Positions 29,053-64,000 of a stretch of DNA of 64,000 nt are shown here, piece after piece. Under the pieces are notes generated by a model, which saw only the letters and a program-made list of their open reading frames with translations, was not told the origin of the DNA and ran no database searches. Both the position numbers and the translations under genes were made by a program. The stretch comes from Rhizomicrobium sp. (lineage in GTDB: Bacteria > Pseudomonadota > Alphaproteobacteria > Micropepsales > Micropepsaceae), in NCBI GenBank assembly GCA_035605955.1, contig DATNGI010000066.1, positions 14,495 to 78,494 of the forward strand. Reading direction: 5' to 3'. The stretch's first letter is position 1. Every line of letters starts with the position of its first letter.

Positions 29053-29135
29053 GTGAGGAGCGGTGGCGTGTAGCGCTACGAGCAGGTCCGGGGGACCTGC
29101 GAGATCGACGAACGCCCCGAGCACAAGCGAGGGGC
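29053..29135 (+). repeat. Structured repeat family A, copy 1
   Basis: GTGAGGAGCGG-hairpin1-GAGCAGGTCCGGGGGACCTGCGA-GAACGCCCC-GA-GC-ACAA-GC-GA-GGGGC. Confidence 0.9.
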
Positions 29136-29162
29136 AGGCGATGCACAGAAGCCGGAAACCGT

Positions 29163-43257: not shown

Positions 43258-43339
43258 GTGAGCGGCGGTTCGCGTCAGCGAACGAGTTGGTTCAGTGAAC
43301 CAATTCGAGCCGCGAACGCCCCGAGCACGAGCGAGGGGC
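43258..43339 (+). repeat. Structured repeat family A, copy 2
   Basis: GTGAGCGG-GTTCGC.GTCA.GCGAAC-GAGTTGGTTC.AGT.GAACCAATTCG-GAACGCCCC-GA-GC-ACGA-GC-GA-GGGGC. Confidence 0.9.
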
Positions 43340-43428
43340 CGCGCGCCCTAAAAAGCCTTTTGATCCGACCCACTTAAGCGCGGGCTGATGCCGCCGGCCG
43401 GATGTGGCCGGCGGTCGCGCAATATGGC

Positions 43429-48016: not shown

Positions 48017-48658
48017 TTAGTCCGCCTCCCGCAAGACCGTCTTCAAATCCTGTTTTTCCTTGTCCCAGCGCTCGCGCTCCATCCGGGCGCGGCGGTCGAG
48101 CGTGTCGCGTTCCTTCTCGATTGCGGCCATCGCCGCCTCATGCCGCGCTTCGGCGCGCTCCAGCGCGGCTCGCGCCTTTTCGGCCTCGCGTTCGCGCCTG
48201 GCTTGTTCCTTCTCCTGCCGCGCCTCTTCGCGCGCCGCTTCTTTCGCCCGCGCCCGTTCGCGCCGCGCTTTCTCCTTTTCGAAAGAGATGATCGCGGCCG
48301 GGGATTGTTTTCTGTCCGGCTTTGCCGGCTCGGGCCGGGCCTTGCGCCGGGACGCTTTTTTCTCTGGCGCCCGCGCCTTGGGCAACTCGCCGCTGGGAGG
48401 CGAGAGCGACCAGTCTTTGGGCAGCACGGCCTTTTCCTGGAAGGGTCCTTTGCTGCCCACCGGCCGCTTCAGCACCACCCCAGGTTTTTCCATCGTTGCC
48501 GCCACGATCTTGGGATCTTCGGTCTCGCGCGCGAAGCCCTGGTGGAAGGCATTGTGCCCCATGCCCCAGGCCTCCAGCGCCGCCTTCATCGACGGGGCGG
48601 CAAGCGCCAGTTCGAAGAAACCCAGATTGGTGATGTAGGTTCGAAGCTTGCGGGGCAT
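48017..48658 (-). CDS. Conserved hypothetical protein with charged coiled-coil C-terminus
   Basis: RKL.TY.T..GFFELA.AAPSMKAAL.AWG...N.FHQG.A, then an E/K/R/A-rich helix. Confidence 0.85.
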   Translation of the reverse strand: MPRKLRTYITNLGFFELALAAPSMKAALEAWGMGHNAFHQGFARETEDPKIVAATMEKPGVVLKRPVGSKGPFQEKAVLPKDWSLSPPSGELPKARAPEKKASRRKARPEPAKPDRKQSPAAIISFEKEKARRERARAKEAAREEARQEKEQARREREAEKARAALERAEARHEAAMAAIEKERDTLDRRARMERERWDKEKQDLKTVLREAD

Positions 48659-48776
48659 TTATCTCACCGGTCTTCTTTGCGCCTCGCTCTTGCTCGGCGC
48701 GTTCGTTGCTTTCGCAGGTCCCCCGGACCTGCTCATGGCGCTGCGCACCACCGCGCCTCACAGCTTGCGGGGCATT
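48645..48776 (-). repeat. Structured repeat family A copy (48679-48761) flanked by a 15-bp direct repeat
   Basis: AGCTTGCGGGGCATT at 48645-59 and 48762-76; the core shares 23 identical nt with copy 1; hairpin-3 stem is GCGCC/GGCGC. Confidence 0.9.
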
Positions 48777-48854
48777 CACACACCGAGAGTGTGCCTCTCT
48801 TTATATATAGAGAAGGCCGGACTAGGTTCCCGGAACCCTTGGTGGAGGATGCGG

Positions 48855-49895
48855 ATGATGGGACGGCTGGCCATGGCCGCGTTCGTTGGCCTGCTCCTGG
48901 CCTCGCCGGCACTTTGGGCTGCGCCGGCTCTGGCAGGCGAGCCGATCCATGAAGAATCTTTCGTCCGCATTGGCGGCATTGACCAATGGATCACCGTCAC
49001 GGGGCAGGACCGCGACAATCCCGTGCTGCTGCTGCTGCATGGCGGGCCCGGCGTCACCTTCACGCCCAATGCGGAGGCGATGTTCCAGGGCTGGGACAAG
49101 GATTTCACCCTGGTCGAGTGGGACCAGCGCGGCGCGGGGCGCACCTTCACCAGGAATGGCGGCGAGGCGATCGCGCCCACCATGAGCTTGGATCGCATGG
49201 TTCAGGACGGCATCGAGGTCGCGCGCTATGCGGCGGATCATCTCTCCAAGAAGAAAGTGATCCTGTTGGGCGCGTCCTGGGGCTCGATCCTGGGCGTGCA
49301 CATGATCCATCAACGGCCGGATCTGTTTTCCGCTTATGTCGGCCCGGACCAGATCGTCAATGCGCAGAAGAATGCGGCCTTGGTCTATGCCCGGGTGCTG
49401 GCGATGGCGAAGACCGCCAAGGATGACGCCTCCGTGGCGGCGCTGGAAAAGATCGGACCGCCAGTGGAATGGAAAAGCCTCGCCGACTTCCTGGCGTATA
49501 ACACTGTGGAACAGACCTATCAGCAGCAACTCGCGCCCCGCCCGGCCGATCCTCCCGTCAGTCCCGCCTATGCCGCGCCGGAAGAGCGCGGCGCGCGGGC
49601 CAAGGCGATCGGCTTCAGCACGCAGCTTTTCTTCGGCGATCATATGGAAGGCCCACTCGCCCACACCGACCTGCCGGCGCTGGGCATGACGGTTAAGGTG
49701 CCCGTCTTTGTGATCCAAGGCGAGCACGACATGACGGCGCTGCCAGAGTTGGCGCGCGCCTTCGTGGCGGATTTGAACGCGCCCAGGAAAGGCTTTTATC
49801 TTCTGCCCGGCGCGGGCCATGCGCCGGGGCCGGAACTTTGGGCCTTAACGCACAAAGTGCTGCTGGAAGAGGTGCGGCCCCTGGCGCGGGAATAG
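48855..49895 (+). CDS. Secreted alpha/beta hydrolase, proline iminopeptidase (S33)-like
   Basis: IGGI.QWI...G.D..NP.LL.LHGGPG; WDQRGAG.T; GASWGS; AGH. Confidence 0.9.
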   Translation: MMGRLAMAAFVGLLLASPALWAAPALAGEPIHEESFVRIGGIDQWITVTGQDRDNPVLLLLHGGPGVTFTPNAEAMFQGWDKDFTLVEWDQRGAGRTFTRNGGEAIAPTMSLDRMVQDGIEVARYAADHLSKKKVILLGASWGSILGVHMIHQRPDLFSAYVGPDQIVNAQKNAALVYARVLAMAKTAKDDASVAALEKIGPPVEWKSLADFLAYNTVEQTYQQQLAPRPADPPVSPAYAAPEERGARAKAIGFSTQLFFGDHMEGPLAHTDLPALGMTVKVPVFVIQGEHDMTALPELARAFVADLNAPRKGFYLLPGAGHAPGPELWALTHKVLLEEVRPLARE

Positions 49896-49961: not shown

Positions 49962-50321
49962 ATGCGGAGGATGGCGTTGGGCGTGGCGGCGTTGATCTTG
50001 CCGCTTCTGATGGGTCGCGCCGTGGCACAGGATGCGGGTGCCTGGCGCACCGAATCCAGTGAGCAGTTCCGCCAGGGTTTCGTGGCGGGCATTGCCTCCT
50101 ATCTGCGCGATTACGGCGGCGGCTTCAGTGCACAGGCGATGCGCGCGGGCTATGCCGATTGCCTGGCGGGGGAGACCGACCGCTCGCTGCTGGATGTGGT
50201 GGACATCTGGCTCGACGCGCATCGGGAAGCGGCCGCCTACGCCCCCAGCGTCGCGGTGCAGATGGCGCTCAACGATTATTGCAACGGCTTCACGCCCAAT
50301 AGACCGCGGATGCCGCAGTAG
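49962..50321 (+). CDS. Secreted helical protein, possibly Rap1a/Tai/HdeA-like
   Basis: Signal peptide; F..GI...L, C......L...V..WL..H.E and AL..YC pattern. Confidence 0.5.
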   Translation: MRRMALGVAALILPLLMGRAVAQDAGAWRTESSEQFRQGFVAGIASYLRDYGGGFSAQAMRAGYADCLAGETDRSLLDVVDIWLDAHREAAAYAPSVAVQMALNDYCNGFTPNRPRMPQ

Positions 50322-50488
50322 TGAGCGCCGACCCGAAGGGGCGAAATGGTCCAGTGGACCATTTCGAGGCGCGAACGCCCCGAGCCCTAGCGAGGGGCAG
50401 CGGCAACAAGCGACAAACGCCGCGAGCACGAGCGAGCGGTTGCGCAGTGCTGACGAGTGGAAACGGTCACGCAGTGGCGACCGGAAAC
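50321..50488 (+). repeat. Structured repeat family A, copy 3 (extended)
   Basis: CGAAATGGTCC.AGT.GGACCATTTCG; GCCCC-GA-GC-CCTA-GC-GA-GGGGC; second tandem-GA hairpin at 50420-39; CGCAGTGGCGAC at 50470-81. Confidence 0.85.
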
Positions 50489-63368: not shown

Positions 63369-63848
63369 ATGACAATCGCCAAGAACACGATTTGCCTATG
63401 GTACGACAAGGATGCCGAGGCCGCGGCCCGCTTCTATGCCGAGACTTTTCCCGACAGCGCGGTGACGGCTGTCCACCGCGCGCCAACCGATTATCCGTCC
63501 GGCAAGGCGGGCGATGTGTTGACCGTGGATTTCAAGGTCGTCGGCATTCCCTGCCTGGGCCTCAATGGCGGACCCGCCTTCAAGCACAATGAAGCCTTCT
63601 CGTTTCAGATCGCCACGGAAAATCAGGAAGAGACCGACCGCTATTGGAACGCCATTGTCGGCAATGGCGGCCAGGAAAGCGCTTGCGGCTGGTGCAAGGA
63701 TCGCTGGGGACTCTCCTGGCAGATCACGCCCAGGGTGTTGAGCGAAGCATTGGCGGCGGGCGGCGAGGAAGCCAAACGCGCCTTTACCGCCATGATGGAG
63801 ATGAAAAAAATCGACGTCGCCAAGATCAAGGCGGCGCGGAAGGGGTGA
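63369..63848 (+). CDS. VOC family protein (PhnB / 3-demethylubiquinone methyltransferase-like)
   Basis: CLWYD..AE.AA.FY, LNGGP.F.H.EAFSF and CGWCKDRWG.SWQI.P motifs. Confidence 0.95.
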   Translation: MTIAKNTICLWYDKDAEAAARFYAETFPDSAVTAVHRAPTDYPSGKAGDVLTVDFKVVGIPCLGLNGGPAFKHNEAFSFQIATENQEETDRYWNAIVGNGGQESACGWCKDRWGLSWQITPRVLSEALAAGGEEAKRAFTAMMEMKKIDVAKIKAARKG

Positions 63849-63928
63849 GGAGCGGTTCGCGGCACGCGAACGAATTGATCCGGACGGATCAATTCGAGCG
63901 ACGAACGCCCCGAGCTTGGGCGAGGGGC
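63845..63928 (+). repeat. Structured repeat family A, copy 4
   Basis: GTGAGGAGCGG-TTCGCG.GCA.CGCGAA-CGAATTGATCC.GGAC.GGATCAATTCG-GAACGCCCC-GA-GC-TTGG-GC-GA-GGGGC; its TGA is the VOC stop. Confidence 0.9.
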
Positions 63929-64000
63929 AGGATGAGAGAGAACGCAACAGACGCTCGAAATAGGTATTAAAAAGCAAGGCAAAGGTGCCCGGGGACATGC

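What the first reader, a model, noticed from the sequence alone, without database searches (positions are those of the whole stretch)
48645..48785. Family A copy flanked by a 15-bp direct repeat that duplicates a start codon (possible target-site duplication)
Seen: AGCTTGCGGGGCATT occurs at 48645-59 and 48762-76, extending imperfectly to about 25 bp (..CACCG). On the minus strand the element's GTGAG end abuts one copy exactly. The repeat contains the ATG and first codons of 48017..48658. Inference: an insertion footprint. The duplication is longer than most DDE TSDs and more like staggered-nick, target-primed or repair-mediated insertion.
Basis: partly seen in the sequence, partly recalled or inferred. 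Interest (0 to 1): 0.62.

Follow-up and report, generated by a model that had tools for sequence, protein, structure and literature searches.

The report
Repeat insertion that duplicated a start codon
A roughly 100-base folded repeat element landed 14 bases inside a gene of a soil Rhizomicrobium and copied about 15-25 bases of the target. The gene therefore kept its start codon, and the same long, variable footprint recurs at other copies of this undescribed element, which has no recognisable transposase.

Summary
AGCTTGCGGGGCATT occurs exactly twice in the window, at 48645-59 and 48762-76. The two copies bracket one minus-strand copy of 'Family A', and the upstream copy abuts the element's GTGAG end.

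Family A is an ~86-nt, four-helix, strongly covarying element. It has no Rfam match. Rhizomicrobium genomes carry either 0 or 10-72 copies, and this genome has 48.

The refutation test failed. In the own genome, 37 of 41 copies show no flanking repeat. Across 156 copies from many genomes, however, 22 (14%) have significant direct repeats of 20-80 nt in alignment. The left copy always ends at GTGAG. The right copy lies 0-51 nt beyond the 3' hairpin.

These repeats duplicate gene termini: four CDS starts, tRNA D-loop and T-loop sites, and a tyrS 3' end. The intact gene always lies on the element's 3' side. Orthologous empty sites with a single copy were found for two other insertions, but none for this locus.

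The focal junction abuts GGTTCGA, a tRNA T-loop look-alike. RAYT/IS200, reverse transcriptase and IS91 genes are absent.

Verdict: a genuine insertion-associated target duplication. The duplicating mechanism is unresolved, and no enzyme was identified.

The parts
48762..48776 (-). Upstream (displaced) copy of the direct repeat. It holds the vestigial start codon (ATG 48775-48773) and still follows the native 5' region shared with the divergent hydrolase gene.
   Evidence: It abuts GTGAG with no spacer.
48758..48775 (-). Relic mini-ORF ATG CCC CGC AAG CTG TGA (MPRKL*). Its stop codon is the TGA inside the element's GTGAG.
   Evidence: Read directly. The in-frame stop is a 1-in-3 coincidence or an effect of selection; this was not tested.
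48676..48761 (-). Family A element, 86 nt. S1 5' strand is at 48761-48753. Hairpin H2 is at 48751-48735 and hairpin H3 at 48734-48710. The S1 3' strand CGAAC is at 48705-48701. The tandem-G.A hairpin H4 is at 48700-48679.
   Evidence: nhmmer and CM matches. The structure is supported by covariation.
48660..48675 (-). Variable 3' tail or filler (GAAGACCGGTGAGATA) between hairpin H4 and the downstream repeat. It now supplies the sequence just upstream of the working start codon (GGTGAG, Shine-Dalgarno-like).
   Evidence: AGAAG(A)CCGG is shared with the tail of the 29053 copy. Tails of 0-51 nt occur in other repeat-flanked copies.
48645..48659 (-). Downstream copy of the direct repeat. It holds the functional ATG (48658-48656) and codons 2-5 of the gene.
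   Evidence: Homologues start MPRKL/MARKL/MAKTL.
48638..48644 (+). GGTTCGA on the plus strand (TCGAACC on the element strand), directly abutting the insertion junction. It resembles a tRNA T-loop and is the candidate target motif.
   Evidence: The same motif occurs at T-loop insertions in tRNA-Gln and one other tRNA and at the ArsC site. Enrichment test.
48017..48658 (-). 213-aa gene of a conserved family with no Pfam domain. Sources annotate relatives as 'TolA-like' or 'colicin import membrane protein'. Its 5' end was hit and regenerated.
48849..49895 (+). Divergent alpha/beta-hydrolase gene. The native intergenic region without the insert would be about 75 nt.
29053..29140 (+). Closest Family A relative in the genome (85% over 84 nt). 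It sits on a stop codon and has no flanking repeat.
43258..43342 (+). Family A copy directly after a gene end, with no flanking repeat.
50321..50445 (+). Family A copy directly after a stop codon, plus an extra isolated H4 module (50409-50445). No flanking repeat.
63845..63931 (+). Family A copy whose TGA is the native stop codon of the upstream gene. It is absent from eight orthologous loci and has no flanking repeat.

Best explanation
A Family A element entered the gene 48017..48658 between nucleotide 14 of the coding sequence and the T-loop-like motif TCGAACC. Family A is a small, non-coding, structured repeat that multiplies in part of the genus Rhizomicrobium.

During insertion a stretch of target DNA upstream of the entry point was copied. 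This stretch is 15 nt for certain and possibly about 25 nt. It now lies on both sides of the insert, in the order [native 5' region + ATG + 4 codons] - [GTGAG...element...16-nt tail] - [ATG + 4 codons + rest of gene].

The downstream copy restores an intact reading frame. The tail supplies a GGTGAG ribosome-binding-like sequence. The upstream copy is left as a five-codon relic closed by the element's own TGA.

Shown:
- the anatomy of the locus;
- recurrence of the same design in the family;
- single-copy empty sites for two other insertions;
- in-situ origin of the duplication in one of them.

Inferred:
- that the focal repeat arose in the same way;
- that only insertions whose duplication reaches past the gene's end survive selection, which would explain why the repeats so often contain start codons, promoters or tRNA ends and why the intact gene is always on the element's 3' side.

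Mechanism of duplication is unresolved. I favour a copy-in event in which a target 3' end at the junction is extended on an element template from its fixed first base, leaves that template at a variable point (the tail), and resumes on the target upstream of where it left. A transposase-like staggered cut of variable width is the alternative.
For: The exact 15-nt repeat abuts GTGAG.

The family is real, structured and copy-number variable. 88.9% of cells are paired, 21 of 30 pairs show double changes, and no shuffle of 500 reaches this. There is no Rfam hit. Copy number across 61 genomes of the genus is 0 or 10-72.

22 of 156 copies have anchored flanking repeats above the 99th percentile of the null. 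Alignments are 20-80 nt and tails 0-51 nt. Unanchored exact matches also end at distance 0 from GTGAG in six cases.

The same design occurs at the starts of ArsC, GreA-like and DUF486 genes, at tRNA-Gly and tRNA-Glu D-loops, at the tRNA-Gln, tRNA-Lys and one other tRNA 3' part, and at the tyrS 3' end.

Empty sites were found. tRNA-Glu loci of several of the relatives read have one promoter copy and no element. The DUF486 gene is uninterrupted in more than 40 relatives, while the filled genome shows a 63-nt overlap of the two query halves. Both copies there share lineage-specific bases, and the non-functional copy carries the extra changes.

The target motif CGAAC lies within 9 nt of the junction at 4 of 13 independent sites, against a 0.6% background.
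Against: No empty or orthologous site exists for this particular locus in any collection searched.

In this genome only four of 41 copies tested show any flanking repeat: the focal copy, C146:7158 and two tandem-array copies.

The many copies that sit on stop codons show no duplication. This includes one that is demonstrably species-specific. The duplication is therefore not an obligatory product of insertion.

In several cases the repeat is perfect next to the junction and only 70-80% identical further away. Simple duplication followed by neutral decay does not predict this.

No enzyme was identified.
Confidence: 0.75

Rival explanations
1. Cassette import. The element did not duplicate local DNA. 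It arrived already joined to its tail and to a foreign or paralogous copy of the gene's 5' end. It was then fixed by homology-anchored recombination, with homologous crossover inside the gene and an illegitimate join at the element's 5' end. This is analogous to an att identity block carried by integrative elements at tRNA genes.
For: In several family cases the repeat is perfect only in the conserved gene part and diverges beyond the gene boundary, as orthologous flanks do: L136, L165, L114 and L142. tRNA T-loop sites are classical integrase targets. The same tRNA-Gln and tRNA-Gly sites are occupied in different genomes. In the focal copy the identity also stops about 1 nt upstream of the ATG.
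Against: In the DUF486 case both copies share lineage-specific substitutions, which points to in-situ duplication. Both tRNA-Glu promoter copies share derived bases. The element is too small to encode a recombinase. The targets are too diverse for a single carried identity block. Every case would need an illegitimate join at exactly the first base of GTGAG.
Confidence: 0.13
2. Two independent events. Either a local tandem duplication of about 25 nt around the start codon existed first and the element later inserted between the copies, or the element inserted into the leader and a later compensatory duplication restored a start codon.
For: Short tandem duplications are common, and the outcome would look the same.
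Against: The same geometry recurs at 13 or more independent sites, with the left copy flush with GTGAG and the right copy beyond the tail. Repeated coincidence of two rare events is implausible. Empty orthologous sites show no pre-existing duplication.
Confidence: 0.06
3. Evolved regulatory leader. The mini-ORF MPRKL* followed by a structured RNA is a purpose-built leader-peptide or attenuator arrangement, not an insertion scar.
For: The mini-ORF is in frame with the element's TGA. Family A elements typically begin on the stop codon of a translated ORF, so a terminating ribosome would melt helix S1.
Against: The structured part is one copy of a 48-copy dispersed family. The 'leader peptide' is a verbatim copy of the gene's own first codons. 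Homologues of the gene in other genomes have unrelated short leaders. A regulatory side effect is possible, but it does not explain the origin.
Confidence: 0.04
4. Chance repeat.
For: None beyond the high G+C content.
Against: An exact 15-mer is present only twice in 64 kb and sits flush with the element end. The anchored score is 34 against a null 99th percentile of 19.
Confidence: 0.01

Closest known systems
REP / REPIN elements mobilised by RAYT (TnpA-REP, HUH Y1) transposases
   Same: Short, abundant, non-coding, hairpin-forming repeats with a conserved 5' tag (GTAG in REPs, GTGAG here). Stems are kept by compensatory change. Location is mostly at gene ends. Tandem clusters occur.
   Different: No Y1 transposase gene in this genome or in most element-rich relatives. 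The fold has four helices with tandem G.A pairs rather than a simple palindrome. From my own knowledge, REPs are not reported to make target duplications, whereas 14% of these copies carry 15-80-nt ones.
IS1549 / IS1634 (IS1634 family), which create long, variable-length direct repeats
   Same: Insertion-associated direct repeats that are long and differ from copy to copy. [quoted passage not shown]
   Different: Those are 1.5-2-kb elements with a DDE transposase and terminal inverted repeats. Family A is about 86 nt and non-coding, has no inverted termini, and has one fixed end and one variable end.
Integrative elements at tRNA genes (tyrosine-integrase att sites; T-loop and anticodon-loop sublocations)
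   Same: Insertion into tRNA T-loops, with a displaced tRNA fragment on one side and a reconstituted tRNA on the other. Identity is limited largely to the tRNA part.
   Different: The insert is only about 100-190 nt and has no integrase. tRNA 5' halves (D-loop) and protein-gene starts are also used, and the repeat is locus-specific.
MITEs such as Correia/NEMIS, ERIC and RUP, and Rickettsia palindromic elements
   Same: Small non-autonomous repeats that land in or next to genes and are co-transcribed. Some are tolerated within reading frames.
   Different: MITEs have terminal inverted repeats and a fixed short duplication (for example TA, or 2-10 bp). Family A has neither.
SINE/LINE-type target-primed reverse transcription
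   Same: Variable-length target duplications, one precise end and one variable end, 3'-flank transduction-like tails, and tRNA-related sequence preference.
   Different: No reverse transcriptase gene (PF00078) in this genome. No A-tail. This mechanism is not known in bacteria.

Membership tests
Classical MITE (DDE-mobilised) | Terminal inverted repeats | tested here: not met
   The 5' end GTGAGSNNCG and the 3' end ...GCGAGCGGCCGG(+tail) are not inverted copies of each other. In the focal copy, GTGAG recurs in direct orientation, not inverted.
Classical MITE (DDE-mobilised) | Target-site duplication of fixed, short length | tested here: not met
   Repeats of 15 to about 80 nt in 14% of copies and none detectable in the rest.
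REP/REPIN-RAYT | RAYT (Y1_Tnp, PF01797) gene in genomes that carry the repeats | tested here: not met
   No match in G000 (48 copies). Matches in only 4 of 19 element-rich genomes and in 6 of 17 element-free genomes.
REP/REPIN-RAYT | Conserved 5' tetranucleotide followed by an imperfect palindrome | tested here: inconclusive
   GTGAG is more than 90% conserved, but it is one strand of an outer helix that closes a multi-branch fold.
IS200/IS605-derived PATE | Insertion 3' of a fixed tetra- or pentanucleotide without duplication; Y1 transposase supplied in trans | tested here: not met
   Duplications are present. Y1 is absent. The motif lies 3' of the junction on the element strand.
Retroelement (TPRT, SINE-like) | Reverse transcriptase available in the genome | tested here: not met
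   PF00078 has no match in G000 or in most element-rich genomes.
IS91 / rolling-circle (HUH Y2) | Y2 transposase; insertion next to GTTC/CTTG without duplication | tested here: not met
   PF04986 is absent from all 19 element-rich genomes. The GTTCG-like motif at junctions is only a resemblance. The GTTC target of IS91 is recalled from memory, not tested.
IS1634/IS1549-type insertion | Long, variable direct repeats on insertion | tested here: met
   15 to about 80 nt, differing between copies. The precedent is described in PMC2266710.
IS1634/IS1549-type insertion | DDE transposase and inverted ends | tested here: not met
   The element is 86 nt, non-coding and without inverted ends. The presence of an IS1634-family transposase elsewhere in the genome was not tested.
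Integrase-mediated integration at tRNA genes | Direct repeats made of the tRNA segment from the crossover site to the gene end | tested here: met
   Seen at tRNA-Gln (L104, L114), tRNA-Lys (L136) and L165. It does not apply to the focal protein-gene site except through the T-loop-like GGTTCGA.
Integrase-mediated integration at tRNA genes | Integrase encoded by, or associated with, the integrated element | tested here: not met
   The DNA between the repeats is 100-190 nt with no ORF. A trans-acting recombinase was not tested.
Any Rfam RNA family | Match to a curated covariance model | tested here: not met
   No match at E<=1 in 36 kb holding five copies.

The most novel reading that the evidence does not exclude
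Family A may be a new kind of bacterial mobile element. It would be a protein-less, RNA-like folded module that spreads without any known transposase, RAYT or reverse transcriptase.

It would choose targets that mimic one strand of its own closing helix. These are (G)TGA at stop codons, mimicking the 5' strand, and (T)CGAAC or tRNA T-loops, mimicking the 3' strand. It would be copied in from a fixed first base with a variable exit.

This process would create long, variable target duplications. Those duplications would let it colonise the first or last few codons of genes and tRNAs without killing them.
Probability: 0.25. Interest if true: 0.85.

Novelty: new variant of a known kind. Interest (0 to 1): 0.62.

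Why it matters
Small structured repeats at gene ends are abundant in many bacteria, but how they move is mostly unknown outside the REP/RAYT and MITE paradigms. This family provides three things:

- datable insertion footprints, with filled and empty orthologous sites;
- a candidate target motif (TCGAAC / T-loop, and TGA);
- negative evidence for the three usual engines (Y1, Y2 and reverse transcriptase).

Together these make the mobility question experimentally tractable. The family also shows a way for an insertion inside an essential gene's first codons, or inside a tRNA, to be harmless: the duplication rebuilds the gene end. As a side effect it rewires the leader and promoter context of the gene.

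For annotation, it explains spurious mini-ORFs, tRNA fragments, and tandem 'element + tRNA 5' piece' arrays.

Tried and rejected
**Empty site for the focal locus**
- Relatives in the genus share only about 74% identity in the gene and have different neighbours.
- Exact-protein look-ups returned only identical same-species contigs.
- The closest homologues, at 75% identity or less, lie in other contexts.
- A metagenome scan with the neighbouring hydrolase found nothing closer than 70%, and no synteny.

**Known RNA family.** None matched.

**Partner enzyme.** PF01797, PF00078 and PF04986 do not co-vary with element presence.

**Donor copy.** No identical source of the focal insert exists in the assembly. 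The best match is 85%.

**Error-prone fill-in as the cause of the imperfect distal repeat.** The substitutions in the tRNA-Glu case show no base bias and look like ordinary divergence. I therefore rejected it.

**Right-hand junction of a stop-codon copy.** This could not be determined because downstream synteny is absent.

**Promoter scan of the focal intergenic region.** Nothing was found. The MFE fold of the leader is only marginally better than shuffles, z = -1.98.

**Literature searches for a described equivalent.** These returned only eukaryotic SINE papers and the IS1634 precedent.

Full report
**1. The observation**

The 15-mer AGCTTGCGGGGCATT occurs at 48645-48659 and 48762-48776 and nowhere else in the window, even allowing two mismatches.

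On the minus strand the region reads as follows. First comes the native 5' region shared with a divergent alpha/beta-hydrolase gene. Then A-ATG-CCC-CGC-AAG-CT, followed directly by GTGAGGCGCGG... (the element, 48761..48676). Then a 16-nt tail, GAAGACCGGTGAGATA (48675..48660). Then A-ATG-CCC-CGC-AAG-CT again, now continuing TCGAACCTAC... as the 213-aa gene 48017..48658.

The upstream copy is closed after five codons by the TGA inside GTGAG, giving the mini-ORF MPRKL* at 48775..48758. Homologues of the gene begin MPRKL, MARKL or MAKTL, so the downstream ATG is the true start.

An imperfect extension to about 25 nt exists (22 of 25). Part of it may belong to the element's tail, because the nearest relative at 29053 carries AGAAGCCGG after its hairpin. 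Three same-species metagenome contigs are base-for-base identical across the region.

**2. What 'Family A' is**

nhmmer iterations found about 45-56 copies in the 3.1-Mb genome, and a covariance model found 48.

The consensus is GTGAG-SNNCG, a variable hairpin, CGAAA-GGTCCGGTGGACC-TTTCG, AG-NNSC-GAAC, then CGCCGC-GA-GC-N4-GC-GA-GCGGC. I read this as four helices:

- an outer helix S1 (GUGAGCNNCG with CGNNGCGAAC) containing tandem G.A pairs;
- two internal hairpins;
- a 3' hairpin, again with tandem G.A pairs.

On 48 sequences from many genomes, 88.9% of cells pair. 21 of 30 pairs show changes on both sides. No shuffle of 500 and no slid register approaches this. G-U pairs occur on the GTGAG strand (15 at one pair), so that strand is the one that folds.

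There is no Rfam match.

A pattern scan found the family in more than 117 stretches, mostly from Rhizomicrobium, Micropepsales and unclassified alphaproteobacterial MAGs. Within the genus its distribution is bimodal: zero copies in about 26 genomes and 10-72 copies in about 28.

In 15-16 of 41 copies in this genome, a long ORF on the same strand ends on the TGA of GTGAG or within 5 nt of it. For the copy at 63845, eight orthologous genes (79-83% identical) end at the same codon with TGA and lack the element. That copy is therefore species-specific, and its TGA coincides with the native stop.

**3.

In this genome, 37 of 41 copies tested have no flanking repeat above background. The exceptions are the focal copy, a decayed case at C146:7158 (20 of 25), and two tandem-array copies.

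I then widened the sample to 156 non-redundant copies, taken from the own genome plus loci from the pattern scan and the genus scan. I aligned each left flank, anchored at GTGAG, to the right flank. 22 copies (14%) score above the 99th percentile of cross-paired flanks. Unanchored longest-common-substring analysis independently placed the left copy at distance 0 from GTGAG in six cases.

The repeat alignments are 20-80 nt long. The right copy begins 0-51 nt after the 3' hairpin.

Independent sites:

- **Protein-gene starts, element co-oriented:** the focal gene; an ArsC-family gene (22 nt beginning at the ATG); a GreA/GreB-like gene (58 nt, in a three-unit array); a DUF486/DMT_6 gene (63-80 nt).
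- **tRNA 5' parts with their promoters:** tRNA-Gly(CCC), cut in the D-loop, as arrays in this genome (C16:32526-32947) and in G075; tRNA-Glu (63 nt).
- **tRNA 3' parts, element on the opposite strand:** tRNA-Gln T-loop in two genomes, another tRNA T-loop (L165), and tRNA-Lys.
- **The last 14 codons of tyrS, opposite strand**.
- **A few sites inside other repeats.**

At all ten sites where the gene could be named, the intact gene lies on the element's 3' side and the fragment lies on the GTGAG side.

**4. Empty sites**

Two other insertions did yield them.

*tRNA-Glu.* Several of the orthologous loci read show the upstream gene's stop, one promoter copy and the intact tRNA, with no element.

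*DUF486.* A joined-flank query aligns without interruption through the junction in more than 40 relatives. In the filled genome it splits into two places that overlap by 63 nt. Both copies there share bases that no relative has, and the non-functional left copy carries the extra, partly non-synonymous changes. That is the signature of a duplication made in place and then decaying.

**5. Target preference**

On the strand opposite to the element, the junction follows GGTTCGA at the focal site, GGTTCGAT in tRNA-Gln, GGTTCGAGT in L165, AGTTCGGGT at ArsC and CGTTCTA in tRNA-Gly.

CGAAC lies within 9 nt to the right of the junction at 4 of 13 independent sites, against a 0.6% background (P about 1e-6). 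Among non-tRNA sites it is 2 of 8 (P about 1e-3). The motif was chosen post hoc.

CGAAC is also the element's own S1 3' strand, the partner of GTGAG. The focal site, AAGCT|TCGAACC, is thus a T-loop look-alike inside codons 5-7.

**6. What moves it**

Three candidate engines do not track the element:

- Y1 transposases (RAYT/IS200) are absent from this genome and are no more frequent in element-rich genomes than in element-free ones.
- Reverse transcriptase is absent from this genome and from most element-rich genomes.
- IS91-type Y2 transposase is absent from all element-rich genomes.

The element has no inverted termini. The only precedent I found for long, variable insertion repeats is IS1549/IS1634, at 8-514 bp with no mechanistic model proposed (PMC2266710). 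These are large DDE elements.

**7. Interpretation**

The focal repeat is best read as an insertion-associated target duplication.

Selection explains its content. An element landing a few codons inside a gene, or inside a tRNA, survives only if the duplicated stretch reaches past the gene's end, so that one complete copy remains. That is why the surviving footprints contain start codons, ribosome-binding sites, promoters or tRNA termini. It is also why the intact copy always faces the element's tail.

The process has one fixed end (G1 of GTGAG) and one variable end (the tail). The duplication length varies roughly fivefold. At stop-codon sites the element's TGA merges with the native TGA.

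These features fit a copy-in or template-switch process better than a ruler-like staggered cut. In such a process a target 3' end is extended on an element template and synthesis then resumes upstream on the target. This remains inference.

**8. Unexplained**

- Stop-codon copies show no duplication, even when they are young.
- In several tRNA cases, and possibly the focal one, identity is perfect next to the junction but only 70-80% further out. This fits a hybrid or imported origin, or local gene conversion.
- Arrays at tRNA-Gly and tRNA-Gln contain different element variants between nearly identical spacers.

**9. Consequence for the gene**

The native promoter region is now 117 nt further from the start codon. 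A five-codon relic ORF ends inside helix S1, and the working start is preceded by GGTGAG from the tail. No sigma-70-like promoter was detected in the region. Expression effects were not tested.

**10. Verdict**

The element family appears undescribed, and its footprint is unusual for a bacterial small repeat. I class it as a new variant of a known kind (a small non-autonomous repeat). A new mobility mechanism remains a real possibility.

Noticed in passing
own genome C16:32526-32947 (outside the window): Three different Family A variants lie in tandem. Each is followed by a roughly 37-55-nt spacer plus the first 18 nt of tRNA-Gly(CCC), and the array ends in the intact tRNA. An array of four or more such units sits at the same tRNA-Gly position in G075 (L161).
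   Followed up: partly
window 63845-63931 and orthologous loci L311, L313, L314, L317: The element's TGA coincides with the native stop codon. Orthologues end ...CGC GGC TGA and the window has ...AAG GGG TGA GG. This suggests the 5' junction forms on a (G)TGA microhomology at stop codons, and no flanking repeat is present there.
   Followed up: partly
own genome C102:2197, C15:23660, C96:12382, C8:9695: Four copies carry a nested palindromic insert of about 20-27 nt (CGTCGCTAGCGTCAGCGTAGCGCGACG-like) in the loop of hairpin H3. This may be a second, smaller repeat that targets that loop.
   Followed up: no
window 50409-50445; also C66:64902, C11:45388 region, L117: Isolated or extra copies of the 'CGAAC + tandem-G.A hairpin' (H4) module occur without the rest of the element. 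Conversely, at C17:18083-18168 a GTGAG...CGAAC module sits directly in front of another variant's H4. The element therefore seems to be built from two separable modules.
   Followed up: no
own genome C25:40474, C33:38310, C96:12382; L217:1-75: A second dispersed repeat ending ...CCTGAGCTTGTCGAAGG lies directly against the GTGAG end of three Family A copies. It also lies upstream of a hydrolase homologue in a metagenome contig.
   Followed up: no
window 48796-48814: An AT-rich palindrome, CTCTTTATATATAGAGAAG, lies in the short native intergenic region between the hydrolase gene and the 213-aa gene. It could be an operator or shared promoter element, and it is now separated from the 213-aa gene by the insert.
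   Followed up: no
L126:6090-6210 (G009:C17): In the ArsC case the relic ORF reads through the whole element and stops at TGA immediately before the restored ATG (GGGAGGGTTGAATG). The tail provides a strong Shine-Dalgarno sequence, giving an arrangement that looks translationally coupled.
   Followed up: no
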